From Candidatus Melainabacteria bacterium (lineage in GTDB: Bacteria; Vulcanimicrobiota; JABDET01): DNA of 64,000 nucleotides. Every line of letters starts with the position of its first letter. Within the stretch, counting starts at the first letter, position 1. Shown here piece by piece: positions 27,128 through 39,556 of this stretch. The stretch is taken from positions 4,590-68,589 of the forward strand of contig JABDET010000001.1 in assembly GCA_013286945.1 (NCBI GenBank), written 5' to 3'. Position numbers and translations under genes: made by a program. The notes beneath the pieces are model-generated. The model was not told the origin of the DNA. It saw nothing but the letters and a program-made list of their open reading frames with translations, and did not search any database.

Positions 27128-27583
27128 ATGAAAGGATGGTCTAAAAACATGAGTGGAGTTGCACAAGTTAGCGGTTTAAGTAGCGGTGGTGGTTCCCTTT
27201 CACGGTCAGTGACGATTGATCCGGAGCATTTAAGAAGGGCTGAGGAAGCCGCCAGACAGCTTCCCCAGGTGGAGGTCAGAGAGTACGAACATTCAGGCGA
27301 TTCTCTCGAGCGGCAAGAAAGCTCAAGGTTTCGGACCACAGGTGAAGCATTGCTTCCACTCGGTCCTGATCTCTTGGCCCTCGCGATTCAACTGGAAGAC
27401 AGCCGAGGCAGATTGAAACCGCGTCTCGAGCTCCCAGGATTTGTATTGACATATCGGAGCAGTTCTCCGGGTAAGGAAGTTCCAGTGTCATTAGTGAAAC
27501 GATTAGCCAATGATGTTCAATTGGAGTTGCTTGCGCAAGCGGCCAGAGATAAGGGAATGACGGGGCAAGTATTTCGCTGGTAG
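27128..27583 (+). CDS. Hypothetical protein
   Basis: 151-aa ORF divergent from 26445..27011. A possible sigma70-like promoter (TTGACA-N17-TACAGT) lies in the 116-nt divergent region. No domain recognised. Confidence 0.4.
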   Translation: MKGWSKNMSGVAQVSGLSSGGGSLSRSVTIDPEHLRRAEEAARQLPQVEVREYEHSGDSLERQESSRFRTTGEALLPLGPDLLALAIQLEDSRGRLKPRLELPGFVLTYRSSSPGKEVPVSLVKRLANDVQLELLAQAARDKGMTGQVFRW

Positions 27584-27640
27584 CTCTGTCGTAGATTTTG
27601 TTTCTAGGTCTCGAACTACAAATCGTTCTTTGAATAGCTT

Positions 27641-28234
27641 GTGGGAGTATTCAAAGAACGATTTTTGTTTGGCGGGTTAAAGAAGGAAAAAGAAGCCAGT
27701 TCAAGCAAAAACATGAGGATGAAGCGGGACAGGAAGTTCTACCGATTGATTTTGTTTGCACTGATGTTAGCAGTTTGTGGAACTGGTGGCTCGGTTCATT
27801 CAAAGAGTCCAGCAAAAACAATACTGGCTCCTGCTTTTTCCCTAAGAGATATTTCAGGGAAAACAGTTACTTTAAGTCAATTTAAAGGGAAAGTCGTGAT
27901 TCTTGATTTTTGGGCCACATGGTGCCCTCCTTGTCGCGAGGAAATTCCTCATCTGGTTGATTTCTATAATCGCTACAAGGGCAAGGGTGTGGTGATCGTG
28001 GGTGTTGCGCTCGATGACGAGGGGTTACGCGTTGTTAAACCCTTTGTGGAAAAACACAAGATCAATTATCCGGTGGTGATCGCCGATGATGCGGTGCAAA
28101 GCGCTTATGGACCCATTCAAGGAATTCCCACAAAGTTCATCATTGACCAGAATGGGAATATTGTGGCGAAGCTTATTGGCTATCAAGAAATCCAAGCGAT
28201 TGAAAAGAAAGTTAAACGTCTGCTCGGCAAATAA
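27641..28234 (+). CDS. TlpA/ResA-like thiol-disulfide oxidoreductase (thioredoxin fold), probable lipoprotein
   Basis: WATWCPPCREEIP CxxC active site. AhpC/TSA-redoxin family similarity. The likely real start is at the internal MRMKRDRKF…LAVCG, giving a lipobox. Confidence 0.85.
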   Translation: MGVFKERFLFGGLKKEKEASSSKNMRMKRDRKFYRLILFALMLAVCGTGGSVHSKSPAKTILAPAFSLRDISGKTVTLSQFKGKVVILDFWATWCPPCREEIPHLVDFYNRYKGKGVVIVGVALDDEGLRVVKPFVEKHKINYPVVIADDAVQSAYGPIQGIPTKFIIDQNGNIVAKLIGYQEIQAIEKKVKRLLGK

Positions 28235-28238
28235 CCGG

Positions 28239-29228
28239 CTACTGGCGGATGAACTCAATTCTCCGGTTAAGAGCTCGCCCTGTCGCGGTCTTGTTCGAGG
28301 CAAGGAAGTGTTTTTCACCTTTCCCTTCGGCTGACAAGCGATCGGGGTTGAGTTGAAACTGCGTTACCAAGACATGCTTTACCGATTCTGCGCGTCGGCG
28401 AGAAAGCTCAAGAGTTTCCTTTCGCGTTCCTCTCGAGTCGGAATACCCCACGATCTTAAGCTTGAGTTCAGGATGAGCAACCAGTGCCTCTGCAATGCTC
28501 TTTAAGACCGGCAACGATTCTTGCGCAACTTGATCCGTGTTAGAGTCGAAGTCGAGGGTGTCGGCTATGTAGTGCCCCTTGGAAAGGATAGCGTTTAGAA
28601 AGTCAGCAGGAGGGCTCGTAATTCGGACACGGGACATTTCGATGGGTGCCATTCCATCGACATTCTGAAGATGAATCCACACGGCGTGCACCGGCGGTGA
28701 TTGAGCTTGGTCCACATCCACGACCGGGCTTCCATTCACGCTAATCCCAAGTTTTCCATTCTCAGCCCAGACGTTAAAAGCCAGGGGTTGATTCACATCC
28801 AAAGGAATGGTGACATCTTCCTTTGAGCCTTCGACATCCAGGACCACTCGAACTTGATTTCGATCCACCGGAGACAAACTTGCACTCCATTTGGCGCCAT
28901 GAGCGTAGCTGTCCCCAAAATTCCAGATGATGCTTTGATTGTCGAGTTCCCCCGGTCCAAGGGTGAAGATCGATTCCAACATGAAATTGGCGGGAAGAAG
29001 CTTGAGCTTGGCTACAAGTTCGACATTTTCGTTGACAGCGAGCTGATGGATACCGTTGCCTGCATCGATGATCTGGGGAGTGGTACCGTTCACCTTCCAA
29101 CTGGAGAGAGGATGGCTGGAGGGGATGCCACTAAAATCATCATAAAACAAGAGCTCCCCATAAGCTTTTTGCATGGCGATCAAACTGAGGGCAAGTGATA
29201 ATAGGACGAATAATCTTTTCATGCCCAT
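28239..29228 (-). CDS. OmpA family protein with N-terminal beta-sandwich-like domain
   Basis: Signal peptide. The C-terminal OmpA-like peptidoglycan-binding domain has VGYSDSRG…LSRRRAESV. Convergent with the thioredoxin gene, 4 nt apart. Confidence 0.8.
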   Translation of the reverse strand: MGMKRLFVLLSLALSLIAMQKAYGELLFYDDFSGIPSSHPLSSWKVNGTTPQIIDAGNGIHQLAVNENVELVAKLKLLPANFMLESIFTLGPGELDNQSIIWNFGDSYAHGAKWSASLSPVDRNQVRVVLDVEGSKEDVTIPLDVNQPLAFNVWAENGKLGISVNGSPVVDVDQAQSPPVHAVWIHLQNVDGMAPIEMSRVRITSPPADFLNAILSKGHYIADTLDFDSNTDQVAQESLPVLKSIAEALVAHPELKLKIVGYSDSRGTRKETLELSRRRAESVKHVLVTQFQLNPDRLSAEGKGEKHFLASNKTATGRALNRRIEFIRQ

Positions 29229-29277: not shown

Positions 29278-30423
29278 TCAAGCCACCCAGAAATTTAATG
29301 CCTGAAGAACCGTAAGGAAGGTTTGCAAGGAAAAGGATAAGCCGAGGAGGGCAAACCTGAGAAAACGGCGCTTTGGATCGTCAAAGGCCAATGCGAAAAC
29401 GATGTAAATGGGGAAGACAGGCAAAAGAAGGCGAGTGTAAGACATGAAACTCCCAAGGAGAGGAGTGAGACCAAAAAGGAGGGAGTAACTAAAGAGTACA
29501 ATATCGGTTTTCTTGTAAATGGAGTATAGAAGGGCTGCAAACAGAAGAAAGAACAGGCGATCCAAGACCAGATTGGTGTATCCATCCGGACCTGTACTCC
29601 AGGAAAATAGATTATGCAACAATGTTTCAGGATGAAAAAGATTCAGCACGTTCCGTTGAGAGACAAAATATTGTTGAGCCAAAAATCCTCGCCATGGATT
29701 GCCTGTTGCCCGGTAAATCCAATGCAAGTAGCACTCAAAACCGATGAGCGGCGCCAGGAGATAAGCCATTTGAAATCGGGCAGAAATTTTCGTTTGGGAA
29801 TCGAATTTGTCTGGATCATGGAGCTGGCTTAGGATATGGTAGGTGAGGAACGGAAAAACAATAAGGACACCCACCCCCCTGGTGAGTGGCAAAAGAAAAG
29901 AAAACAGTGCGGCCCAAAGGTATCGGTGGGAATACAAATAGTAAAAAAATGCGAAAAGAAGCAGCATGAACAACGACTCACTGTAAATCAACGAACAATA
30001 AAAATTGGTGGGAAAGACAAGCAAGGCTAGGAGACTTAGGGAAGCGATTCGAGCGTTAACCAGCATTCTCACGAGGAGAAAGAAATAACAGTAGGCTCCA
30101 AAAGAGCAAAGGTTGGATACAAGAAGCCCTGAAATAAAGGAGCTGTGCAAGACGCGTGTGAAGGCACGAATAACCCACGGGAACAAAGGGAAAAATGCAT
30201 CGGAACTTCTGTTTTTGGGGTAGCCTTTTTCGCTTAAATACAGATAATGCTGGGCATCCCAGGTTTCAAAAGCAGATTGAAGCGTGATTCCTTCTTCAGG
30301 ATGAGCAAGAAAATTCACCCGATGAGCTTCGCTATCAAAATACAAGAAGCGATACGCGAGAAAGATCGTAATGATGGTGCAGATCTTGAAGACAAAGATG
30401 AGTGCCACCATCTTCTTTGGCAT
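29278..30423 (-). CDS. Polytopic membrane protein, GT-C-like (PIG-V / mannosyltransferase-like) candidate
   Basis: 381 aa with about 10 TM helices. The first loop has FETWDAQHYLYLSEKGY, reminiscent of GT-C mannosyltransferase family signatures. The family call is tentative. Confidence 0.55.
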   Translation of the reverse strand: MPKKMVALIFVFKICTIITIFLAYRFLYFDSEAHRVNFLAHPEEGITLQSAFETWDAQHYLYLSEKGYPKNRSSDAFFPLFPWVIRAFTRVLHSSFISGLLVSNLCSFGAYCYFFLLVRMLVNARIASLSLLALLVFPTNFYCSLIYSESLFMLLLFAFFYYLYSHRYLWAALFSFLLPLTRGVGVLIVFPFLTYHILSQLHDPDKFDSQTKISARFQMAYLLAPLIGFECYLHWIYRATGNPWRGFLAQQYFVSQRNVLNLFHPETLLHNLFSWSTGPDGYTNLVLDRLFFLLFAALLYSIYKKTDIVLFSYSLLFGLTPLLGSFMSYTRLLLPVFPIYIVFALAFDDPKRRFLRFALLGLSFSLQTFLTVLQALNFWVA

Positions 30424-30686: not shown

Positions 30687-31088
30687 ATGAAGGATCGTTC
30701 ATCGGAGTTTTGGCAAAATCTGTTAGCCTGGTTGTCTCTAGCTGTTTTCTTGTTTTTGATGCCTAAGTTAGGATTCTCCCAGCCTCTTCCAAGCGGATCC
30801 GCTCCAAAACAGATCAAAATCAATCTCCAAAACCAAGCTTTAGTTAACTTTGTACTCGAAGATGGAACGGTCGTTCCTGAAAATGTCATTGCCATTCCTT
30901 CTGCCCTTTCTGAAGTGGCCGGTCACGTAGTCAATCATTCCGGGGCGCGGGAAGCCAACGCTTTGGTTCAAAAGGGAAAAGACTTGGTTCTCGAAGATGT
31001 CGAGACGCTAGAAACCACAGACACGACAGACAGTCAGGCCAGTGAGTTGACGGGTACCCATGATACGGGGATGGAAGCGATTCCCTAA
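30687..31088 (+). CDS. Hypothetical secreted protein
   Basis: 133 aa. N-terminal hydrophobic signal-like segment (LLAWLSLAVFLFLMPKLGFSQ). The acidic, Thr-rich C-terminus has no recognisable domain. Convergent with the TPS operon. Confidence 0.45.
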   Translation: MKDRSSEFWQNLLAWLSLAVFLFLMPKLGFSQPLPSGSAPKQIKINLQNQALVNFVLEDGTVVPENVIAIPSALSEVAGHVVNHSGAREANALVQKGKDLVLEDVETLETTDTTDSQASELTGTHDTGMEAIP

Positions 31089-31092
31089 AGAC

Positions 31093-31617
31093 CTACTTAG
31101 TTTTCCCTTTTTCACGAACGTCTTCCTGAATCTTAAACCACTTGGAAAGCTGAAGAGGGGTGAGAATCTGTCGGATCTTTCGACTTTTTTCAATGTTAGC
31201 CATTTCAACCTCAACCAGAATCTTGGCATTTGCCATTAATTGAGTGCGAATGACTGAAAGATCAGCATTTTGGTCAATCAATTTTCGAGATTCTTTTTTC
31301 CCGGTTTCTAGATTTGCTCTGAGTCCTTGCAATGCTTTTTTGTTCTCATCATAGATTCCCTGAAGTTTTGCCACTTGATCGTTCGAGAGACCGAGTTCAG
31401 TCTTAAAGTCCCAAAGATACTTAGTTTTTTCTTCATTTTGGGTGGGCGAAGGGGCGGGGTTCAAGGGGATGGCCGCCGCCACTACTTTCGTCGGCAACGG
31501 ATTTCCTTCTGCCCCACGATAAAACGGGAGTAATGAAAGAGAGAAAACGAAAAAGAGAAGGAAGCGGAAAGGCCCGCTTCTCCTCTCTGTATTCTTTGAA
31601 TCGAAGGGTTTCGTCAT
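31093..31617 (-). CDS. Spy/CpxP-family (LTXXQ-motif) periplasmic protein
   Basis: Signal peptide. Two LTXXQ-like motifs (LSNDQ, LTPLQ). Helical, K/E-rich, as in Spy/CpxP chaperones. Overlaps the tpsA stop by 4 nt, so it is the last gene of the TPS operon. Confidence 0.5.
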   Translation of the reverse strand: MTKPFDSKNTERRSGPFRFLLFFVFSLSLLPFYRGAEGNPLPTKVVAAAIPLNPAPSPTQNEEKTKYLWDFKTELGLSNDQVAKLQGIYDENKKALQGLRANLETGKKESRKLIDQNADLSVIRTQLMANAKILVEVEMANIEKSRKIRQILTPLQLSKWFKIQEDVREKGKTK

Positions 31618-34600
31618 TTCTTATGCTTTTTCTGTAATTCTAGGACTTGTTCAAGTAGCTCCTCGGAATTTAAGGCGGCGAATGCATCGCCAAAGCCAAA
31701 GGAGTTGTCAATCGAAACACCAAAAGTGAGGTCGAACAACTCGTCCACATTGGCAAGATCGACATTGCCTTGAGCGATTCCTGAGAAGAACGTATCTGGA
31801 TTAGCTCCAATGGCTCCAAGGTCCAGCAGGAGGAGCTGGAATGGGCTTAGGTTTCCTGGCGGACAATCAGACAAGCAGTTTCCATTAAAGATGATCTGAC
31901 CTGAGGGATCCGGGAGATCGGGTTCCGGCATCCCTAAAGTATTATCCACCGTGATTCCATTGATGTCAACGGAAACGAGGCCAAAAATTCCGCCAGACTT
32001 CACACTCAAGATTCCTGTCGGAATGTTGACTCTGACGGGGAAGAGCACGCTTCCAATGATTCCGCTGCCAGCGACAAGAGACGAATTGCCTCCTGCTGTT
32101 AAGTTAAAGCCAGCGCCATTGTGCGTGTTGTCAAGAATCGCATGGACCGCGGTTAACTCGATGGAACCGCTCGCTGTCAAATAGTTCAGAAGAAGATCAC
32201 CGGCACTGTTGCTGACCACAATATTCCCAGCCGGGCCTTGCGCCAGTAAGTTGTTCAAAATGAAGCTGTCTGCATTGTTGAAGTAGATGCCCCCATTGTG
32301 CGCGGTGGCGTTCAGCACGGCGATGCTTCCTTGAATGGGATCTCCGGGAGCTCCGATGCCTTTTCCTGCATCCAAGGTCACGTAGTAGCCAGTGATCAGG
32401 CTCGGATCACTTAGAATAGAGCCGGCTGCGGTTAAGCTGAGTGAATTGCTCATGCCGACATTCACGTTTCCGACGAAGATGTTTCCGCCGGTGTTGTCAA
32501 AGAAGACATCGGTTCCCACCATGTTGGCATTCAGGGTCAGATCGGCAAAGGTGAGTGATTCACCCGTTGTGGTGTTGACGTTCGCATTGCTGTTGTTCGT
32601 ATTGACTGTCAGCGTTTTCAAGGCTTGGTTGTTCGCATCGAAGATAGGAGCATCGGTCCCAGTCGTTGTAAGCGACAGGTTAGGTGTGTCAGTGACTAAA
32701 GCCTGTTCCTCAGTTCCGATGCCGTCAACCGCTGTGAGGACCACGACCGCTCCGGCCACATTCACCGGGGGATCCTCTCCAACGATGCTTTGTGCGGAGA
32801 GATTCGCAAGGCCCTTCGCCGACACAAGCCCAAGAATCAGGTCACCAGGTGAGCTGATCCAGATGGATCCATTGTCCGCATTGGCGTTCAAAGCGTTATC
32901 GAGAAGCACACTCACTGGCAGATCAGCACTTCCAATGTCCTCGCCAGCGGTTAACCTGGCATGATCTGCTGTAAGGTTAATTTCATTCTCGCCTGCGTTT
33001 AAGATCGATCCAGAGGCGTTCAGCGTGACTCCACCATCGCCATCGAGAGTGTTCACAAGGCCGAGGGCAATATTTCCGCCGGTATTGTTGAAAGTGAAGT
33101 CGGCTCCTGGGAGGTTGGCGTTAAGCTCGTCATCGTCAGAGACGCTGAAGTCGACGAATTCTTCTCCACCTTCGCCAACGAGAATATGAACATCCCCATT
33201 GTTGGTTGTATCCGATAAGTTGTCAAAGTTTTCAGAGTTGTAGATATAAGTTTCCGCACCAAGACCAGTGGTCGTGGTGGTGAGGTTACGTGTCCGGGTC
33301 CGGAGGGCCTGTTCATCGGTTCCGATTCCAGTCACCGCGGTCAGGGTAATCTCGCCATTCGGTGCGGACACATCAGTTTCTCCAAAGAATCCGAATGCTT
33401 CAGATGGATTGCTGCTCGTGATGGATCCTCCGGCCGTTACGTTGGCGTTCCCGCCAGAAAAGATATGCGTAATCTCTGCATTGTTTCCCGCCGTGATATT
33501 GATGTCGCCGACTCCGGTGGTTACCCCTGAGTCCGCGTTTACAAAAACATCGAAGCCGGCATTCATATCGATTCCGTTGTCCGGGCCACGGTTGCCTTCG
33601 CCAAAAGTGCTTTCCGTGGTGAGGTAAGAGCCGGTAATGTTGATGTTTCCATTGGCGGCGTTAAGCGCGATGTTACCACTTTGGACGCTTGAAGAGTTAT
33701 CGCTGTGGGCGAAGCTCACAATTTCGGAGTTGTTTACATTGACGTCTCCGTTCGTGGCTGTCAAGGAGATATTCCCACTGGTGGTCGGGTCGAACTGGCT
33801 TTGGGCCAAGCTTTCTACAGAGGAACTATCAATATTCACATTCTGGCCGCCGGTAATGATCACATTTCCGCTGGTCGGCTCGAGGATGCCACCCGTATTC
33901 GTGGCCTGACTCAGGACCGTCGAGCTGTCCACATTGACGTCACCTTCGTTGGCAACCAAGGTGACGTCACCACTCTGGCTGTTGCCGGAATTGCTTGTAC
34001 TCTTGCTTTGAACAAGGGAACTGTTCAGGTTAAGGTCGTTGCCACCTATCAGAGAGACAGCACCACTCTGGCTGCCTCCGGAATCGCTGTTGCTCTTACT
34101 TTGGACTTCCGAACGATTGTTGATGTTGATGTCGCTACCTGCGGTCAGGGATACGGTCCCACTCTGGCTATTTCCGCCGCCGCTAGCATCGCTGAAGCTC
34201 TGAATCGTCGAGCTGTTGACGTCCAGGTTGTTTCCAGCGTTCATCGTGATATCACCGCTGGTCGGGTCTCCTCCATTGTTCGCTTCCGAGTTCACGTACG
34301 AGTTGGCAATCACGATATCGTTGCCAGCGTTGAAGGTGATATTCCCGCTGATGACATTGGGGGAGGCAGTACTCGATGCCCTGGTTTGAATACTTGATTC
34401 ATGAATACTAATGTCTCCGTTTGTGGCTGTTAAGGAAATATTTCCACTGGTAGTCGGGTCGAACTCGCTTTGGGCTAAACTTTGGACAGAGGAACTTCCA
34501 ATATTCACATCCTGGCCAGCGCTGATGACTACATCTCCACTGGTCGGCTCGAGGATGCCACCCGTATTCGTCGCCTGAGTAAGAATGGCGGAACTGTTAA

Positions 34601-37133
34601 TGTTGACATTTTGCCCAGCATTCATGGAGATGGCTCCACTCTGGCTGTTGCCAAAACCACTGCTGGAAAAACTTTGAATGTTTGAATGGTCCACATGGAT
34701 GTCGGTTCCAGCACTGAGAGAAATGTCGCCACTGGTGCTACTCCAGCTTCCATTGAAGACGGTACTAAGACTTGCCACATTGGTTCCACCAGTGATTGTG
34801 ACAGAACCGTTGGTGGCCGTGAGGGAGATCGAGCCACTCTGGGTGTTTGCGGTATCGCTGGTCGCGGTGCTCAGAATGGTCGAATTGTCGAGGCTTAAAT
34901 CGTTTCCGGCTGTCAGGGAGACATTGCCGCTCATCGGGTCTCCACCAAAATCATTAACCGAACTTTGGACCGTTGAGTTATTGACATTGATGTCATGACC
35001 TGCATTAATGTCAACATCGCCACTGGTGCTCACGGTTTCAGAGTTCGCATTCTGCGTATTGCTGATGCTTTGAACAAGCGAGCCGTTGGTGATATTCGCG
35101 TCATTTCCCGCCGTGAGGATAATGGATCCACTCTGAGTGTCTTCACCACCAGACGTATTGGCGGTGCTTTGAATGGTCGAACTGTCAACATTAAGGTCAT
35201 GTGCTGCGTTCAGGGTGATGTTGCCGCTCGTCGGATCGACAGATGCATCCGCTTCGGTGTTCACAAACGAATCATTGCTCATGGAAATATCGTTTCCGGC
35301 ACTAAAGGAGATGTTTCCACTGATAGCATTGTTCGAACTGCTGTGGGCAATGCTGTCTACTGTTGAAAGATTAAGCGTCAAGTTGTTCCCGGCGGTTAAG
35401 GAGACATTGCCGCTGGTCGGGTCTCCAAAATCGTCCGCCGAGGTTTCAATCGCTGAGTTGGTAACCTCGAGGTTTCGACCCGCTGAAAGTGAGATGTTGC
35501 CACTGTTTCCGTTATGATTCGTACTTTCAATAAAAGAATGATCGGTGGCGGTTAAGTCTCTTCCGGCCGACAGACCAATATCGCCAGAGATCGACTGAAT
35601 GCTCGACCCGGAGGCAATGATGTCCTTATCTGCAGTTACGGTAATGTTGCCGGCATCGGTCGTCAAATTAGCCAAGGCCGTAATTTCGCCACCGCTATTG
35701 AGCGTTGTCCCGGCGTTCAACGTGAGGTTTCCATTTCCTTGCGCCTGAACGGTATTGCTTGTGTTTTCAAAAATAATGTCGCCTGTACCCGTTTTTAAGG
35801 TGAGACTGATGTTGTTCGGAAGCGTAAGAGTTCCGCCGAGGGTAGACATGTCATCTAAAGTAATCGAGTTTGAAGAAGAAATCGTAATATTGCTGGAAGC
35901 TCCGGTCAAGAGGTTAGCCGAAATGATAAAATCGGTCGGCTGCGGTTCGTTTGAATCACCCCAACCGTCTTGATCGAACCAATTGACAATTTCAGCATTG
36001 ACTGGATCGATCAAGAGATTTCCAACCGTTCCATGAGGAGCTGACGTATTTACCACTCCGTAAACCCAGCCTCCCTTATCACCACTAAGTTCCACGTCGC
36101 CACCATTTCCGCTGGTTCCGGATTTTGCTTCAATGCCTCCCGAAAAGACCAACCTGCCTTGTGAAAGCGCATGGATGGTTCCCCCATTGGAATTTTCTCC
36201 GTCGCCGTTGGCTTGCGTCAAGCTCGAGCCGGGCAATACAGTACCCTGGGTGGAGTTAATCACGATGTTCCCAGCGCTATTATTAGCCGAGCCATTGGCT
36301 CGAATTGTCCCAATGTTTGCAGCAAAACCTTCTGACTTGCCCAAAATGACATGCCCATCCTCTGTGTGGGTAATACTTCCAGCTTCAATAACGCCACTGA
36401 AGTTGACAATGTTTTCGAGAAGAGCGCTGACTGCGTTTGAATCCATGACCACATCGTGCGGGGTATCGTTTCCGCTTAGGACAAAGTTGAGAAGGCCTTG
36501 TCCATCAAAATTTAAGACGGTCGCTTGAGTTCCGGCACCGAGGCCGACTTTCCCCAGGTTGGCGGTAATGGTTCCTTCGTTGCTGACCATTGGGGCTAAC
36601 AGGACCACTGAACCGCCGTCTGCAGCATTGATCGTTCCTTGGTTAACCACATAAGAAAGGGGATGATTCATGTCTTGTGAAAAAACGTAATTTCCACTAA
36701 GGAAATCGCTATCTTTCATGCTTAAGGTGGAGGCTAGAAGTCCCCCCACATTCACCGTGGCGGTTGGGCTAAAAAGAATTCCGTTTGGGTTTAGGAGAAA
36801 GACACGTCCATTAGCCTGTAATGCGCCCGCAATGACCGAAGGGTCACCGCCAAGAATACGGTTTAGTGTAGCAGCAGAGGTTGAAGGTTGAAGGAATTTG
36901 ACAAGCTCATTCAGATTGATTCCAAAACTGTTCCAATTGATGATCGCTCTACTGGTGGCCTGATTGATGGTGGTTGTTGTTGCCGCTTGAGTGATGGTCG
37001 CAGTTCCTGAGGTCACCACACCTCCCGAAGGAGCGCTCCATGACAACTGGGGCGAGATGAGGAAAGCAACCATAAGCCATGCAAGAACTTGTTGTCCAAT
37101 CTTTTTTCTTTTTGCCATCAACCTTTTAACCAT
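31614..37133 (-). CDS. Two-partner-secretion exoprotein (TpsA; filamentous-haemagglutinin-like beta-helix adhesin)
   Basis: N-terminal TPS secretion domain (…NQATSRAIINWNSFGINLNELVKFLQPS…ILGGDPSVIAGALQANGRVFLLNPNGILF…). It is followed by about 1500 aa of degenerate 20-aa beta-helix repeats (SGNISLTAGNDL…, SGNITLNAAHDL…). Length 1839 aa. No VENN or C-terminal toxin module was recognised. Confidence 0.9.
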   Translation of the reverse strand: MVKRLMAKRKKIGQQVLAWLMVAFLISPQLSWSAPSGGVVTSGTATITQAATTTTINQATSRAIINWNSFGINLNELVKFLQPSTSAATLNRILGGDPSVIAGALQANGRVFLLNPNGILFSPTATVNVGGLLASTLSMKDSDFLSGNYVFSQDMNHPLSYVVNQGTINAADGGSVVLLAPMVSNEGTITANLGKVGLGAGTQATVLNFDGQGLLNFVLSGNDTPHDVVMDSNAVSALLENIVNFSGVIEAGSITHTEDGHVILGKSEGFAANIGTIRANGSANNSAGNIVINSTQGTVLPGSSLTQANGDGENSNGGTIHALSQGRLVFSGGIEAKSGTSGNGGDVELSGDKGGWVYGVVNTSAPHGTVGNLLIDPVNAEIVNWFDQDGWGDSNEPQPTDFIISANLLTGASSNITISSSNSITLDDMSTLGGTLTLPNNISLTLKTGTGDIIFENTSNTVQAQGNGNLTLNAGTTLNSGGEITALANLTTDAGNITVTADKDIIASGSSIQSISGDIGLSAGRDLTATDHSFIESTNHNGNSGNISLSAGRNLEVTNSAIETSADDFGDPTSGNVSLTAGNNLTLNLSTVDSIAHSSSNNAISGNISFSAGNDISMSNDSFVNTEADASVDPTSGNITLNAAHDLNVDSSTIQSTANTSGGEDTQSGSIILTAGNDANITNGSLVQSISNTQNANSETVSTSGDVDINAGHDINVNNSTVQSSVNDFGGDPMSGNVSLTAGNDLSLDNSTILSTATSDTANTQSGSISLTATNGSVTITGGTNVASLSTVFNGSWSSTSGDISLSAGTDIHVDHSNIQSFSSSGFGNSQSGAISMNAGQNVNINSSAILTQATNTGGILEPTSGDVVISAGQDVNIGSSSVQSLAQSEFDPTTSGNISLTATNGDISIHESSIQTRASSTASPNVISGNITFNAGNDIVIANSYVNSEANNGGDPTSGDITMNAGNNLDVNSSTIQSFSDASGGGNSQSGTVSLTAGSDININNRSEVQSKSNSDSGGSQSGAVSLIGGNDLNLNSSLVQSKSTSNSGNSQSGDVTLVANEGDVNVDSSTVLSQATNTGGILEPTSGNVIITGGQNVNIDSSSVESLAQSQFDPTTSGNISLTATNGDVNVNNSEIVSFAHSDNSSSVQSGNIALNAANGNINITGSYLTTESTFGEGNRGPDNGIDMNAGFDVFVNADSGVTTGVGDINITAGNNAEITHIFSGGNANVTAGGSITSSNPSEAFGFFGETDVSAPNGEITLTAVTGIGTDEQALRTRTRNLTTTTTGLGAETYIYNSENFDNLSDTTNNGDVHILVGEGGEEFVDFSVSDDDELNANLPGADFTFNNTGGNIALGLVNTLDGDGGVTLNASGSILNAGENEINLTADHARLTAGEDIGSADLPVSVLLDNALNANADNGSIWISSPGDLILGLVSAKGLANLSAQSIVGEDPPVNVAGAVVVLTAVDGIGTEEQALVTDTPNLSLTTTGTDAPIFDANNQALKTLTVNTNNSNANVNTTTGESLTFADLTLNANMVGTDVFFDNTGGNIFVGNVNVGMSNSLSLTAAGSILSDPSLITGYYVTLDAGKGIGAPGDPIQGSIAVLNATAHNGGIYFNNADSFILNNLLAQGPAGNIVVSNSAGDLLLNYLTASGSIELTAVHAILDNTHNGAGFNLTAGGNSSLVAGSGIIGSVLFPVRVNIPTGILSVKSGGIFGLVSVDINGITVDNTLGMPEPDLPDPSGQIIFNGNCLSDCPPGNLSPFQLLLLDLGAIGANPDTFFSGIAQGNVDLANVDELFDLTFGVSIDNSFGFGDAFAALNSEELLEQVLELQKKHKK

Positions 37134-37159
37134 GGGGAAAAGCCTCCTTTGAATCTCTG

Positions 37160-38788
37160 TTAAAACTGTTTTGAAAATTGCGCATAGAGCACAGGAAGTT
37201 CATTTGACAAATTCTTCGAAGGACTAATCGGGAAGCCGAGATCAATACGCAAGCTTGTTGATTTGCCGAGTCCAGCGCGAAGACCGACACCTCCGCCGGT
37301 GAGCTGCTTTTTAGAAACTGATCCAGGAAGTGCATTTCGAAGGGTCATGTATCCGGTATCGACAAAAAAGGCGGTTTGCAAGCTATTAACATCCGTGTTT
37401 GCGGTCATCGGGACACGAAACTCTGCACTGGCGGTCCATCCCGAATCTCCTAGAAACTCGGATTGTTCGTAGCCCCGAACCGAATCAGGTCCGCCCAAGG
37501 CAAATTGCTCGGTAATCGCAAGAGGGCTAAGGGAGTACTGAGCTGTTCCATGAAGTAACAGATACTTGTTGGTAAAAACTCTTTGAATATGAACCAGTTC
37601 GACATTCGCCTTGGTAAAGCTGTCGTCTGCGCCTACACGGCTTGCTAAAGGATCCCCTCTCATCATTCCCCCCATGAAGGTACCAAGCCCTTGAGTGACA
37701 CTTGAAGTCAAGAAATCCCTCGCGGTATCGGTTGCCCACTGGCGGTCAAAGCCAAGAGCCAATTCACGAAGTCGATCACGGCTTGTAAGAAAACTGGTCA
37801 GGAAAAAATTAGAGACGTTTTTCGCATAAAAACTAGCGGTAAAATCTGAGCCTCCCGTTGTGGTTCGACTCAAAGGTTGTGTGAAAGTAAATCCGTAGAT
37901 CTGCGCTGTACCCCGAATATCCAGAACTTGGAGATCCTGCCCAACCCGGATATCTGCTGAGGCAAATGAACCTGTAAGCTTGGCTCCGGATGGGCTTATC
38001 GGTGTTGTATAGTAAGCTTGATAAAAGGGGGACTCGTTATTCGTAGGGACCGGAACAACCATTCTTGCATCCAGGAGGTCGCCCCGTCCACTTAAGCTCC
38101 CATGCCAATATTCAAAACCAAATCGGTTTCGACCAACAAGCGGGTTTCCAAAATTGTTGTAATCCAGTTGTCCATGAGAGGGTTCTGAATCTTCGACCTT
38201 CAGAAGAACATCGGTTGTTCCCTGCTTTCCGCCTGGCTTTAGGAATGCACGAACATGAAGATCGGGGAATTCATTCAGAAGAACCAAGGCGCGCTCAAAA
38301 TCTTCAGAGACACCTCGCCGAGCAGCCGGAGAGAAATAATATCGAATGAAATCTGAAGAATAGTGCTTGTTCCCCTCCACATCGATCTTGCCAATTTTCC
38401 CTTCAACCACATCAATCTCGACCACCCCATTTTGGATGTCTTGCGGAGGAACAAAGGCGCGAGCGAGGAGATATCCCTTTTTCCGGTAAAGCCCAGTGAT
38501 TTGTACGGCGACATCTTTCAAAGTGTCCAATTGGATCTCTTTGCCGATGTAACCGGACGTAATGGAAGAAATTTCTTGTGGAGTCAAGAGCGTGCTGCCG
38601 GATACTTCAATGGATTTAATTGGGACCTTGATTTCTGGAGGTGGTGCGGGCTTCGGAGTTGAGCGGGTTGCATTTTCAGCAACCACCGGCCCATAAAGCG
38701 TTTCTGACATAGAAGAACGGGTTGAACCCCAGAGAAGAACAAAGCTTAGCAGAAACGAGATTAAGATCTTCGAAGGTGTTAGTTTCAA
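37160..38788 (-). CDS. TpsB transporter (ShlB/FhaC/HecB family haemolysin activator/secretion protein)
   Basis: 542 aa. Signal peptide. POTRA region followed by a 16-strand Omp85-type barrel. The terminal residue is F. Immediately upstream and co-directional with tpsA. Confidence 0.9.
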   Translation of the reverse strand: MKLTPSKILISFLLSFVLLWGSTRSSMSETLYGPVVAENATRSTPKPAPPPEIKVPIKSIEVSGSTLLTPQEISSITSGYIGKEIQLDTLKDVAVQITGLYRKKGYLLARAFVPPQDIQNGVVEIDVVEGKIGKIDVEGNKHYSSDFIRYYFSPAARRGVSEDFERALVLLNEFPDLHVRAFLKPGGKQGTTDVLLKVEDSEPSHGQLDYNNFGNPLVGRNRFGFEYWHGSLSGRGDLLDARMVVPVPTNNESPFYQAYYTTPISPSGAKLTGSFASADIRVGQDLQVLDIRGTAQIYGFTFTQPLSRTTTGGSDFTASFYAKNVSNFFLTSFLTSRDRLRELALGFDRQWATDTARDFLTSSVTQGLGTFMGGMMRGDPLASRVGADDSFTKANVELVHIQRVFTNKYLLLHGTAQYSLSPLAITEQFALGGPDSVRGYEQSEFLGDSGWTASAEFRVPMTANTDVNSLQTAFFVDTGYMTLRNALPGSVSKKQLTGGGVGLRAGLGKSTSLRIDLGFPISPSKNLSNELPVLYAQFSKQF

Positions 38789-39097
38789 GTCTCTTCCCTC
38801 CAGATGTTTAATTTAGATGGTGTCACGGTAAAAAAAGCAATAACTCACTCACGGTCTTTGCATTTTTCATAATTCAGAACCACCAAGCGGGGTAACTCTA
38901 CACCAATGAGTTCTGAAAAAACGCTCGTTTAAACTAAAAGGGATTGCATAATTCCCTTAAAAAGGGCATTTTCCTTTTTTGAGACCAAGTTTTCTTCTTC
39001 CTTATAACACACACAGTATACCCAATTGTGGATGGCTGCAACCAGGAGGTCGAATCTTTGTGAAAGAATCTGGTTGAAGTATAAGGAGGTTGTACAG

Positions 39098-39556
39098 GTG
39101 AAAAAAGCCACCTTTGGAGCCGGATGCTTTTGGGGAGTGGAAGATGCGTTTCGAAAAGTGAAAGGGGTTGTTTCCACTCGTGTTGGGTATTCGGGTGGAA
39201 CGTTTCCGAATCCAACCTATCAAGATGTTTGCGGAGACAAGACAGGGCACGCGGAAGTTGTCGAAGTTGCCTACGATCCATCACAAGTTTCCTACGAAAA
39301 GCTCCTGAGTTTGTTTTGGGAAATGCATGATCCGACAACGCCCAATCAACAAGGACCTGATGTGGGTTCTCAATATCGATCCGCAATATTTTTTCACGAT
39401 CCGGAGCAAGAAAGGGCTGCACATCGAGCGAAGGAGGAACTTGAGCAGTCTGGGCGATACTCACGAAAAATTGTTACTGAAATTGTTCCGGTTTCTTCCT
39501 TTTATCAAGCAGAGGATTATCATCAGCAGTATTTCAAAAAACAAGGTGTTCGTTAA
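39098..39556 (+). CDS. msrA: Peptide-methionine (S)-S-oxide reductase
   Basis: GCFWG active-site motif and full MsrA similarity. The start is re-assigned to the in-frame GTG at 39098, which lies 7 nt after AGGAGG (39085-39090). Confidence 0.9.

What the first reader, a model, noticed from the sequence alone, without database searches (positions are those of the whole stretch)
31093..38788. Two-partner secretion operon: TpsB, a giant beta-helix TpsA, and a Spy/CpxP-like LTXXQ protein
The ShlB/FhaC-family transporter is followed by a 1839-aa exoprotein with a canonical TPS domain and about 1500 aa of beta-helix repeats. The operon ends with a translationally coupled small periplasmic LTXXQ-motif protein (31093..31617). 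A Spy/CpxP-like chaperone-type partner is not a standard component of FHA/ShlA/CdiA systems. No CdiA-type VENN pretoxin, immunity gene or haemolysin-type features were recognised. The TpsA is likely an adhesin.
Basis: partly seen in the sequence, partly recalled or inferred. Interest (0 to 1): 0.55.

Follow-up and report, generated by a model that had tools for sequence, protein, structure and literature searches.

The report
Two-partner secretion operon with Spy-like gene
This is an ordinary two-partner secretion locus (an outer-membrane transporter plus a giant beta-helical surface protein) whose only unusual feature is a third, overlapping gene for a Spy/CpxP-type periplasmic protein, and that pairing was not seen in any related locus examined.

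Summary
On the minus strand lie tpsB (37160-38788), tpsA (31614-37133) and a 174-aa ORF (31093-31617) whose ATG overlaps the tpsA stop (ATGA).

TpsB has ShlB and POTRA_2 domains and the VRGY and FVDTG motifs. TpsA has an EtpA/HMW1-type TPS domain and 21 tandem repeats of about 32 aa that match no Pfam family, including Fil_haemagg_2. Its beta-helical C-terminal cap is shared by many environmental TpsAs. It ends in an acidic, low-confidence 75-aa tail. No toxin, VENN motif or immunity gene was found.

The small protein belongs to the Spy/CpxP/ZraP superfamily. Its family profile hits Spy in the PDB and its AlphaFold model best matches ZraP. Its own Pfam LTXXQ score is below threshold.

The linkage is not conserved. 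None of ten loci encoding TpsA relatives holds an LTXXQ gene, and none of eight loci encoding LTXXQ relatives holds tpsA or tpsB.

A strong terminator-like hairpin sits just after the tpsA stop, inside the small ORF.

My best reading is a lineage-specific Spy-type holdase made together with TpsA. This is an inference, not shown. Interest is modest.

The parts
37160..38788 (-). tpsB. A 542-aa FhaC/ShlB/CdiB-type Omp85 transporter with a signal peptide, POTRA domains and a beta-barrel. TTG start with a GGAGG 9 nt upstream.
   Evidence: Pfam ShlB 2.3e-29, POTRA_2 5e-22, Omp85 3.3e-14. PDB CdiB 6wim 5.8e-17. VRGY at aa 437 and FVDTG at aa 475. Start context.
31614..37133 (-). tpsA. A 1839-aa secreted exoprotein. 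The mature protein is very acidic (pI 4.05) and rich in Ser, Gly, Asn and Thr. Its only two Cys are at aa 1753 and 1757.
   Evidence: A strong SD (AAGGAGG) lies 26 nt after the tpsB stop.
36363..37034 (-). TPS secretion domain of TpsA (aa 34-257), with LNRI at aa 90 and NPNG at aa 115. It follows a Sec-type signal peptide (aa 1-33).
   Evidence: Pfam TPS 2.1e-32. TIGR01901 1.9e-21. PDB EtpA 8vba 1.9e-40, HMW1 2odl 5.5e-32, HxuA 4i84 3.4e-25.
33579..35606 (-). 21 tandem repeats, mean period 31.8 aa (aa ~510-1185), consensus about SGNISLTAGNDLNVNNSTIQS plus a variable linker. Presumed beta-helix rungs. They match no Pfam repeat family.
   Evidence: Regex anchors and spacing. No Pfam hit at E <= 1. 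No PDB sequence hit.
32118..33578 (-). Second beta-helix region (aa ~1186-1672), carrying a larger duplicated unit (LTAVxGIGTxEQAL...).
   Evidence: Internal duplication at 39% identity. GIG anchors. AF2 gives a beta-helix with pLDDT > 90 from aa 1560 onward.
31839..32117 (-). C-terminal beta-helix cap conserved across this TpsA clade (aa ~1673-1765), ending in the ...PPGxVxFNG-type motif (here PSGQIIFNGNC).
   Evidence: BLAST to more than 40 TpsA relatives at the same relative position. Alignment.
31617..31838 (-). Variable acidic C-terminal tail of TpsA (last ~75-80 aa; the last 80 aa have pI 4.1). Low-confidence model, no recognisable domain.
   Evidence: pLDDT 29-56. No Pfam, PDB or Foldseek match. 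Not conserved among relatives.
31093..31617 (-). A 174-aa ORF for a Spy/CpxP/ZraP-superfamily (LTXXQ) protein. It has a signal peptide (aa ~1-36), a Pro/Ala-rich linker and a helical domain (aa ~58-172) with motifs LSNDQ at aa 77 and LTPLQ at aa 152. The mature protein has pI 9.5, no His and no Cys.
   Evidence: Pfam LTXXQ 21.1 bits, below cutoff. 257 representative homologues at E <= 1e-3, best 5e-17. Family alignment. Family profile against PDB: Spy at 5.7e-4 and 5ihf at 4.7e-5. AF2 four-helix model, top Foldseek hit ZraP 3lay, TM-score (target-normalised) 0.76. Composition.
31614..31617 (-). ATGA overlap of the tpsA stop codon and the LTXXQ start codon. There is no SD-like motif upstream.
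   Evidence: Sequence read directly. SD survey.
31536..31588 (-). Terminator-like element. A 14-bp hairpin (31554-31588, one bulge) is followed by UUUUUCGUUUUCUCUCUUU. It lies 26-80 nt after the tpsA stop, within codons ~10-27 of the LTXXQ ORF.
   Evidence: Listed by the terminator scan. Folding energy -22.8 kcal/mol, z -3.76, equalled by 1 of 200 shuffles. One of 9 hairpin-plus-T-tract hits in both strands of the 64-kb window, and similar in form to the intergenic hits at 27662(+) and 62656(-).
31941..31969 (-). Candidate internal sigma-70-like promoter (TTGACA-17-GATAAT, 11 of 12 matches) inside the 3' end of tpsA, 324 nt upstream of the LTXXQ ATG. Weak evidence only.
   Evidence: Best-scoring site. 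The total number of sites is no higher than in shuffles (9 against 8.5).
38789..39025 (.). A 237-bp intergenic region between tpsB and the divergent msrA (39026-39556, plus strand). Presumed promoter region of the tps operon.
   Evidence: Sequence. msrA matches Pfam PMSR at 4.8e-67.
30687..31088 (+). Convergent 133-aa ORF ending 4 nt from the LTXXQ stop. It has a strong SD, a TpsA-like signal peptide and a ~57-aa segment resembling the end of the TPS domain (TpsA aa 198-254). Whether it belongs to the system is unknown.
   Evidence: BLASTP E 5e-6. Shuffle tests: 0 of 1000 and 0 of 2000 reach the observed score. A TPS N-terminal HMM hits it at 1.1e-5. SD. No Pfam hit at E <= 10.

Best explanation
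This is a chromosomal type Vb (two-partner) secretion locus in an uncultivated, poorly sampled diderm lineage.

Shown by sequence and profile evidence:
- TpsB is an FhaC/CdiB-type Omp85 transporter.
- TpsA is a Sec-exported 1839-aa protein. It has an EtpA/HMW1-type TPS domain, a long beta-helical repeat passenger, a clade-conserved C-terminal cap and a short acidic tail. It carries no toxin module.
- The third ORF is an exported, basic, His- and Cys-free helical protein of the Spy/CpxP/ZraP (LTXXQ) superfamily. Its ATG overlaps the tpsA stop.

Inferred:
- TpsB threads unfolded TpsA across the outer membrane, where it folds into a surface fibre, most likely an adhesin.
- The LTXXQ protein is a lineage-specific add-on acting as a Spy-type, ATP-independent periplasmic holdase.
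- It is made when ribosomes finishing tpsA reinitiate at the ATGA. The same ribosome passage would mask the terminator-like hairpin in its first codons, so its synthesis would track TpsA synthesis.
- It would shield the unfolded, highly acidic, repeat-rich TpsA in the periplasm, or buffer envelope stress when export stalls.

It is not a conserved component of this TpsA clade.
For: - TPS pair: Pfam, NCBIfam and PDB hits plus motifs.
- No toxin. The C-terminal cap is shared with more than 40 relatives. AF2 gives a beta-helix followed by a low-confidence tail. Pfam, PDB and Foldseek find nothing there. No VENN-type motifs. The next gene is convergent.
- LTXXQ protein in the Spy superfamily: 257 homologues, all ~130-180-aa signal-peptide proteins with the two L[ST]xxQ motifs. 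The family profile hits Spy structures. The AF2 model best matches ZraP.
- No metal ligands: 0 His and 0 Cys. Charges are complementary: pI 9.5 against TpsA pI 4.05.
- Physical coupling: ATGA overlap with no SD. The junction is confirmed in a second assembly.
- A holdase need is documented for TpsA proteins. The review PMC5422565 describes DegP as a holding chaperone for FHA.
- Spy as an ATP-independent periplasmic chaperone is established knowledge. I did not test it here.
Against: - The linkage is unique to this locus in everything I could sample. The LTXXQ family HMM finds no member, even at E <= 1, in any of 10 loci of TpsA relatives. Their gene tables show no downstream gene for an LTXXQ protein.
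- None of 8 loci of LTXXQ relatives has tpsA or tpsB. Their contexts are unrelated to each other.
- A strong terminator-like hairpin immediately after the tpsA stop could mean that tpsBA transcripts usually end before the LTXXQ gene.
- A promoter-like site inside tpsA would allow independent expression.
- The Pfam LTXXQ score is below the gathering threshold.
- No functional data exist. The adhesin role is assigned only by exclusion.
Confidence: 0.45

Rival explanations
1. Fortuitous neighbour. The LTXXQ gene is a general envelope-stress or periplasmic quality-control gene, as spy is in E. coli, that happens to lie just after a complete tpsBA unit. It would be expressed mainly on its own, or by occasional read-through, and would have no specific relation to TpsA.
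For: - No conservation of the pairing in either direction.
- Family members elsewhere are stand-alone genes in unrelated contexts.
- A strong terminator-like hairpin directly follows the tpsA stop.
- An 11/12 promoter-like site lies 324 nt upstream of the LTXXQ ATG.
- Redox and envelope housekeeping genes are nearby: msrA, an AhpC/TSA-like gene, OmpA and RND efflux genes.
Against: - The ATGA overlap leaves no room for an independent ribosome-binding site, and none is visible.
- Any transcript for the gene must pass through the hairpin, which lies inside its own coding region.
- The count of promoter-like sites is no higher than in shuffles.
- Same-strand overlapping genes are usually co-expressed. 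This is general knowledge and was not tested here.
Confidence: 0.35
2. Regulator or sensor, or metal-binding protein. The LTXXQ protein would act like CpxP, a periplasmic inhibitor or adaptor of a sensor kinase that reports TpsA jamming, or like ZraP, a metal-dependent chaperone and repressor.
For: - It has the same fold superfamily. The top structural match is ZraP 3lay.
- 5 of 40 family members hit Pfam Metal_resist.
- A GAF-domain protein is encoded about 1 kb upstream of the operon.
Against: - No His or Cys in the mature protein, so there is no ZraP-type metal site.
- No two-component system was found among the ORFs scanned across the window.
- The family profile matches Spy and 5ihf rather than CpxP in the PDB sequence search.
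Confidence: 0.1
3. TpsA is a contact-dependent inhibition toxin or a cytolysin rather than a structural protein or adhesin, and the small downstream gene is its immunity or activation factor.
For: - The closest solved structure to TpsB is CdiB.
- The small gene lies immediately downstream of tpsA, as cdiI does.
Against: - No VENN or related pretoxin motif.
- The C-terminal 170 aa are conserved across many TpsAs rather than polymorphic.
- The tail is about 75 aa, acidic and modelled with low confidence. It has no Pfam, PDB or Foldseek match.
- The downstream protein has a signal peptide and a Spy-like fold, unlike cytoplasmic CdiI proteins.
- The TPS domain is of the EtpA/HMW1/HxuA type, not the ShlA/HpmA type.
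Confidence: 0.03

Closest known systems
EtpBAC (enterotoxigenic E. coli) and HMW1ABC (Haemophilus influenzae) two-partner adhesin systems
   Same: - They carry the nearest solved TPS domains: EtpA 8vba 1.9e-40 and HMW1 2odl 5.5e-32.
- They are also giant beta-helical exoproteins.
- They are also three-gene loci, with an accessory gene after tpsA. The gene organisation is from my own knowledge.
   Different: - The third gene there is a cytoplasmic N-glycosyltransferase (EtpC, HMW1C). Here it is an exported Spy-like helical protein.
- The passenger repeats are unrelated at sequence level, with no PDB hit beyond aa 355.
- No HMW1C-like gene was seen in the window.
FhaB/FhaC of Bordetella (prototype TPS system)
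   Same: - The same TpsB architecture and conserved motifs, and a TPS domain with the NPNG motif.
- Unfolded periplasmic transit that benefits from a holding chaperone, DegP (PMC5422565).
   Different: - No Fil_haemagg_2-type repeats.
- No large C-terminal prodomain.
- The chaperone in Bordetella is a general protease-chaperone encoded elsewhere, not an operon-encoded LTXXQ protein.
Spy (E. coli periplasmic ATP-independent chaperone), Pfam LTXXQ PF07813
   Same: - An exported, small, basic, all-helical protein with two L[ST]xxQ motifs.
- The family profile hits Spy structures 3o39, 5wnw and 3oeo at 5.7e-4 to 2.8e-3.
- No metal ligands.
   Different: - The single-sequence Pfam score is below threshold.
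- No NCBIfam hit.
- It has a ~30-aa Pro/Ala-rich linker.
- It forms its own divergent family, in which the best non-self hit is 32-39% identical.
- E. coli spy is a monocistronic stress-induced gene (my knowledge), not overlapped with a secretion substrate gene.
ZraP and CpxP (LTXXQ-fold regulators and chaperones of envelope stress systems)
   Same: The fold. ZraP 3lay is the top Foldseek match: probability 1.0, TM-score (target-normalised) 0.76, E 0.11.
   Different: - No His or Cys for metal binding.
- No adjacent cognate two-component system.
CdiBAI and BcpAIOB contact-dependent inhibition loci
   Same: - TpsB resembles CdiB 6wim, 5.8e-17.
- Bcp loci show that small accessory genes, such as bcpO, which in some species encodes a periplasmic lipoprotein, can sit inside TPS operons (PMC5422565).
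   Different: - No pretoxin motif, toxin domain or immunity gene.
- The accessory protein here is neither a lipoprotein (no Cys) nor related to BcpO by any search done.

Membership tests
Two-partner (type Vb) secretion system | TpsB: an Omp85-family barrel with N-terminal POTRA domains and the conserved L6 VRGY and barrel FxDxG motifs | tested here: met
   Pfam ShlB 2.3e-29, POTRA_2 5e-22, Omp85 3.3e-14. VRGY at aa 437 and FVDTG at aa 475. CdiB 6wim 5.8e-17.
Two-partner (type Vb) secretion system | TpsA: an N-terminal signal peptide followed by a ~250-aa TPS domain with the NPNG-type motif | tested here: met
   Pfam TPS 2.1e-32, above the 33.5-bit cutoff at 113.5 bits. TIGR01901 75.8 bits. NPNG at aa 115. 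EtpA, HMW1 and HxuA structures hit.
Two-partner (type Vb) secretion system | Adjacent, co-oriented tpsB and tpsA genes | tested here: met
   A 26-nt gap on the same strand, and each gene has a strong SD.
Two-partner (type Vb) secretion system | TpsB-dependent secretion of TpsA | not testable with these tools
   Requires an experiment.
FHA-type TpsA (Fil_haemagg_2 / FHA repeats) | Pfam Fil_haemagg_2-type repeats in the passenger | tested here: not met
   No Pfam family other than TPS at E <= 0.01 on the whole protein, and none at E <= 1 on segments.
CdiA / polymorphic toxin TpsA | A pretoxin demarcation motif (VENN or an equivalent) followed by a variable C-terminal toxin domain and a downstream immunity gene | tested here: not met
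   No motif found. The C-terminus is conserved among relatives. No toxin fold or family. The downstream gene encodes an exported Spy-like protein.
Spy/CpxP/ZraP superfamily (Pfam LTXXQ PF07813) | Score above the Pfam gathering threshold | tested here: not met
   21.1 bits against a cutoff of 24.3, E 5.3e-4. 10 of 40 family members match LTXXQ at E <= 0.01.
Spy/CpxP/ZraP superfamily (Pfam LTXXQ PF07813) | Two LTXXQ motifs in a small exported helical protein | tested here: met
   LSNDQ at aa 77 (Ser variant) and LTPLQ at aa 152. Both lie in the most conserved columns of the family alignment, which also shows N-terminal signal-peptide-like segments in all members. No signal-peptide predictor was available, so export is read from the sequence.
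Spy/CpxP/ZraP superfamily (Pfam LTXXQ PF07813) | Helical-hairpin fold similar to solved members | tested here: met
   AF2 model has pLDDT 85-94 over aa ~80-160, with four helices. Foldseek top hit is ZraP 3lay: probability 1.0, TM-score (target-normalised) 0.76, but E only 0.11. The family profile hits Spy and 5ihf in the PDB.
Spy/CpxP/ZraP superfamily (Pfam LTXXQ PF07813) | Chaperone activity and a cradle-shaped dimer | not testable with these tools
   No multimer prediction or assay was available.
ZraP subfamily | His-rich metal-binding site and linkage to zraSR | tested here: not met
   0 His and 0 Cys in the mature protein. No two-component genes among the ORFs scanned in the window.
Conserved three-gene TPS operon with a dedicated accessory (as in EtpBAC or HMW1ABC) | The accessory gene is conserved next to tpsA in related systems | tested here: not met
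   0 of 10 TpsA-relative loci and 0 of 8 LTXXQ-relative loci show the pairing. Power is limited, because the nearest TpsA is only 49% identical over the N-terminal 27% of the protein.

The most novel reading that the evidence does not exclude
The LTXXQ protein is a dedicated, operon-encoded Spy-type holdase for a two-partner secretion substrate.

Its synthesis would be gated in two ways: by translational reinitiation at the tpsA stop codon, and by ribosome-dependent read-through of a terminator embedded in its own signal-peptide codons. The chaperone would then be made only while TpsA is being made.

This would be the first substrate-dedicated periplasmic chaperone described for type Vb secretion.
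Probability: 0.25. Interest if true: 0.55.

Novelty: new member of a known kind. Interest (0 to 1): 0.3.

Why it matters
How very large, unfolded TpsA proteins survive their passage through the periplasm is only partly understood. DegP is the main documented helper (PMC5422565).

A Spy-like gene physically coupled to a tpsA gene would give a simple, testable model for substrate-dedicated periplasmic chaperoning in type V secretion. As it stands the coupling is a single, unconserved instance in an uncultivated organism, so it is a hypothesis generator rather than a discovery.

The locus also documents three further things:
- an uncatalogued ~32-aa beta-helix repeat;
- a C-terminal cap shared by a large clade of environmental TpsA proteins;
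- a divergent, widespread subfamily of Spy-like proteins that Pfam detects poorly.

Tried and rejected
1. Word-indexed homologue search with the LTXXQ protein found only the protein itself. The exhaustive phmmer search was needed to find the family.
2. The search for related loci with the 40-sequence alignment failed because no stretch was conserved enough. A 12-sequence subset gave only 3 genome loci and 5 metagenome loci, so the sample is small.
3. The source genome is not among the GTDB representatives. Taxonomy could not be fixed. The best non-self PriA match is 60% identical and unnamed. The next matches are ~43% identical, across WOR-1, Nitrospinota, Bacillota, Armatimonadota and Omnitrophota.
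4. The closest TpsA, P0003, has no contig on record, so its context is unknown.
5. Positional orthology with the stand-alone tpsA loci (L002-L004) was rejected. The shared AhpC-like neighbour is only 35% identical and no other neighbour matches.
6. tblastn against plasmids gave no LTXXQ relative.
7. PADLOC gave only a non-significant match, REase_II at E 0.009.
8. I looked for terminators after tpsA in relatives, to test whether the hairpin is ancestral. None was comparable.
9. Lack of an SD before the LTXXQ ATG is not informative by itself. Only 13 of 38 longest-ORF starts in the window have an SD-like motif.
10. Literature searches for TPS together with LTXXQ, CpxP or Spy found no papers.
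11. A toxin reading of the TpsA C-terminus was rejected.

Full report
**1. Observation.** The tpsB-tpsA gap is 26 nt, and both genes have strong Shine-Dalgarno sequences. The third ORF starts with an ATG that overlaps the tpsA TGA as ATGA. The same tpsA-small ORF junction and downstream genes occur, 100% identical, in a second assembly, a Logan contig from SRR8433451. A chimeric assembly is therefore unlikely.

**2. The transporter.** The 542-aa protein matches Pfam ShlB (2.3e-29), POTRA_2 (5e-22) and Omp85 (3.3e-14). It carries the VRGY (aa 437) and FVDTG (aa 475) motifs typical of Omp85/TpsB barrels. Its nearest solved relative is CdiB 6wim (5.8e-17). It is a TpsB.

**3. The exoprotein.**
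- Residues 34-257 match Pfam TPS (2.1e-32, 113.5 bits) and TIGR01901. They contain LNRI (aa 90) and NPNG (aa 115).
- The closest solved TPS domains are EtpA (1.9e-40), HMW1 (5.5e-32) and HxuA (3.4e-25).
- Nothing beyond the TPS domain matches any Pfam family, even at E <= 1, or any PDB sequence.
- Residues ~510-1185 consist of 21 tandem units with a mean period of 31.8 aa, roughly SGNISLTAGNDLNVNNSTIQS plus a variable linker.
- Residues ~1186-1672 hold a larger duplicated unit.
- An AlphaFold2 model of the last 280 aa, built with 12 homologous C-termini, is a confident beta-helix (pLDDT > 90) up to about aa 1730. The last ~80 aa have pLDDT 29-56. Foldseek against the PDB returns only weak, generic beta-helix proteins, with best E 0.6.
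- Residues ~1673-1765 form a cap that recurs at the same relative position in more than 40 TpsA relatives, ending in a PPGxVxFNG-like motif. The ~75-aa tail after it is variable and acidic.
- There is no VENN-type motif, and the next gene is convergent.
- The protein is therefore not a CdiA-type toxin. 'Adhesin or surface fibre' is an inference from exclusion and from its nearest solved relatives.

**4. The small protein.**
- Pfam LTXXQ scores 21.1 bits (E 5e-4), below the 24.3-bit threshold. NCBIfam finds nothing. The word-indexed search found only the protein itself.
- An exhaustive phmmer search of 1.84 billion representatives found 257 relatives at E <= 1e-3. The best non-self hit is 5e-17, at 32-39% identity.
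- The relatives are 130-180-aa proteins. Each has an N-terminal signal-peptide-like segment, a low-complexity linker and a helical domain. The most conserved positions include two L[ST]xxQ motifs, LGL[ST]DxQ and LTPxQLxKW. The window protein has LSNDQ (aa 77) and LTPLQ (aa 152).
- Ten of 40 members hit Pfam LTXXQ and five hit Metal_resist.
- A profile of the family hits PDB entry 5ihf (4.7e-5) and three Spy structures (5.7e-4 to 2.8e-3).
- A single-sequence AlphaFold2 model is confident over the helical domain (four helices, pLDDT 85-94). Its best PDB match is ZraP 3lay (probability 1.0, TM-score 0.76 normalised to the target, E 0.11).
- The mature protein is basic (pI 9.5) and has no His or Cys. 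This argues against a ZraP-like metal site. Mature TpsA is strongly acidic (pI 4.05, 173 Asp+Glu against 39 Lys+Arg).
- Conclusion: it is a divergent member of the Spy/CpxP/ZraP superfamily, closest in character to Spy.

**5. I tested it in both directions.

(a) *TpsA relatives.* Ten loci were recovered.
- P0004, P0005, P0006 and P0007 are stand-alone tpsA genes with no tpsB. In P0004-P0006 the next gene is TrmO. P0007 is a split copy at the same locus, followed by further ORFs.
- P0032, P0041, P0011 and P0036 are tpsB-tpsA pairs followed by a convergent gene.
- P0024 is a tandem tpsA-tpsA followed by a 93-aa ORF with no significant Pfam match (best E 0.49).
- The P0008 contig ends 250 bp after tpsA.
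- An HMM of the LTXXQ family finds no member in any of these ten loci, even at E <= 1.

(b) *LTXXQ relatives.* Eight loci were recovered from GTDB genomes and JGI metagenomes.
- None contains a TPS domain or TpsB by tblastn, by a TPS N-terminal HMM or by phmmer.
- Their neighbours are unrelated to one another: a Ser/Thr kinase, PAC2, AdoHcy hydrolase, DUF4019 and an NTPase.
- No relative occurs in 72,556 plasmids.

The pairing is therefore unique to this locus in the available sample.

*Caveat on power.* The nearest TpsA is only 49% identical over the N-terminal quarter. The organism belongs to a sparsely sampled lineage: the best non-self PriA match is 60% identical, and the next are ~43% identical across several phyla. 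Conservation in unsampled close relatives cannot be excluded.

Between 26 and 80 nt after the tpsA stop there is a 14-bp hairpin (31554-31588, one bulge) followed by UUUUUCGUUUUCUCUCUUU.
- It folds at -22.8 kcal/mol, z -3.76, equalled by 1 of 200 shuffles.
- With a stricter scan, only nine hairpin-plus-T-tract elements occur on both strands of the whole 64-kb window. Those at 27662(+) and 62656(-) lie in intergenic positions after genes and have the same long-stem form.
- This element lies inside codons ~10-27 of the LTXXQ ORF. The U-tract encodes the Phe/Leu-rich core of its signal peptide.
- It may be (i) a real tpsBA terminator, (ii) an attenuator that is overridden when ribosomes reinitiating at the ATGA translate through it, or (iii) a by-product of the coding sequence.
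- The best sigma-70-like match in the region (TTGACA-17-GATAAT, 11/12) lies inside tpsA, 324 nt upstream of the LTXXQ ATG. The number of such sites is no greater than in shuffles.
- No Shine-Dalgarno sequence precedes the LTXXQ ATG, but only 13 of 38 ORF starts in the window have one.
- No comparable terminator follows tpsA in the relatives.

**7. Mechanism.**
- Well supported: Sec export of all three proteins, and TpsB-mediated translocation of TpsA through recognition of the TPS domain. This follows from membership of a well-studied system (PMC5422565).
- Inferred: the LTXXQ protein is co-produced with TpsA and acts as a Spy-type, ATP-independent holdase for the unfolded, acidic, repeat-rich substrate, or as a buffer against envelope stress when export stalls. 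The overlap, the shared compartment, the complementary charge and the documented need of FHA for a holding chaperone (DegP) favour this.
- Against: the lack of conservation, the terminator-like hairpin and the stand-alone contexts of all relatives favour the rival, a general envelope-stress gene that merely abuts the operon.
- I put the two at about 0.45 and 0.35. A CpxP/ZraP-like regulatory or metal role gets about 0.1, because there are no metal ligands and no adjacent two-component system. A toxin-immunity reading gets about 0.03.

**8. Comparison with known systems.**
- It is a member of the type Vb family, and every sequence-level criterion is met.
- It is not an FHA-repeat protein, not a CdiA, and not an EtpBAC/HMW1ABC-type operon, in which the third gene is a glycosyltransferase.
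- No held paper mentions TPS together with LTXXQ, CpxP or Spy.
- Accessory genes inside TPS loci are known in general, for example bcpO.

**9. Verdict.** This is a genuine and correctly located tpsB-tpsA pair of an environmental clade, with an unusual but apparently lineage-specific Spy-like third gene. I rate it a new member of a known kind. The 'new variant' reading, an operon-encoded dedicated chaperone, is possible at about 0.25 but rests on a single locus. Interest is 0.3.

Noticed in passing
window 30687-31088 (+): A convergent 133-aa ORF ends 4 nt from the LTXXQ stop.
- It has a strong SD (GGGAGG).
- Its signal peptide resembles that of TpsA (QxxLAWL..A.FL..P.L..S.P). None of 2000 shuffles reaches the observed score.
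- Residues 37-93 resemble TpsA aa 198-254, the end of the TPS domain: 32% identity, BLASTP E 5e-6, and none of 1000 shuffles reaches the score. An HMM of 80 TpsA N-termini hits it at 1.1e-5. It also hits the same region of other TpsAs.
- It lacks the NPNG core, and Pfam finds nothing.
It may be a decayed, inverted tpsA 5' fragment or a small exported TPS-domain mimic.
   Followed up: partly
window 31536-31588 (-): A strong terminator-like hairpin with a U-tract (-22.8 kcal/mol, z -3.76) lies immediately after the tpsA stop, inside the signal-peptide codons of the LTXXQ ORF. The U-tract encodes its Phe/Leu-rich hydrophobic core.
   Followed up: partly
window 29278-30423 (-) and 28239-29228 (-): Downstream on the same strand as the tps genes, beyond the convergent ORF, lie two envelope genes.
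- A 381-aa membrane protein with weak, sub-threshold similarity to PMT_2/ArnT-type glycosyltransferases (Pfam 25.7 bits against a cutoff of 26.1) and to the NCBIfam family for cell-surface glycopolymer formation.
- An OmpA-family protein.
TpsA has 54 N-x-S/T sequons, and its nearest solved relatives, EtpA and HMW1, are glycoproteins. No link was tested.
   Followed up: no
loci L002-L004 and L014 (relatives P0004-P0007): The closest recoverable TpsA relatives (43-46% identity in the TPS region for P0004-P0006; 37% for P0007) are stand-alone genes with no tpsB within 8 kb on either side. In one genome (L014) the gene is split into 1227-aa, 97-aa and >=769-aa ORFs. Their transporter must be encoded elsewhere, or they are decaying.
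   Followed up: partly
TpsA aa ~1673-1765 (window 31839-32117) and relatives P0003-P0103: A conserved C-terminal beta-helix cap (..NLTAGxNSxLxAxGGVIG..PIEVNIxPGTLSVxATGQIGGVSVxINGTVxPSNTL..PPGxVxFNG) is shared by dozens of environmental TpsAs, many of which also carry DUF5649. It is followed by short variable tails, some with paired Cys. It matches no Pfam family.
   Followed up: partly
whole window; PriA at 45843-47834 (-): The organism is from a sparsely sampled lineage. The best non-self PriA match is 60% identical, on unnamed contigs. The next matches are ~43% identical and spread over WOR-1, Nitrospinota, Bacillota, Armatimonadota and Omnitrophota. The window is otherwise chromosomal core: MreB, Maf, RuvX, YceG, PriA, LeuRS, an RND efflux operon, a TonB-dependent receptor and a 1097-aa Ser/Thr kinase-TPR protein.
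   Followed up: partly
window 27620-27670 (+): A 17-bp perfect hairpin with a T-tract follows the 151-aa ORF (27128-27583) and lies at the 5' end of the longest AhpC/TSA ORF (27641-28234). The real AhpC start is probably downstream, as in the 171-aa gene call on the Logan contig.
   Followed up: no
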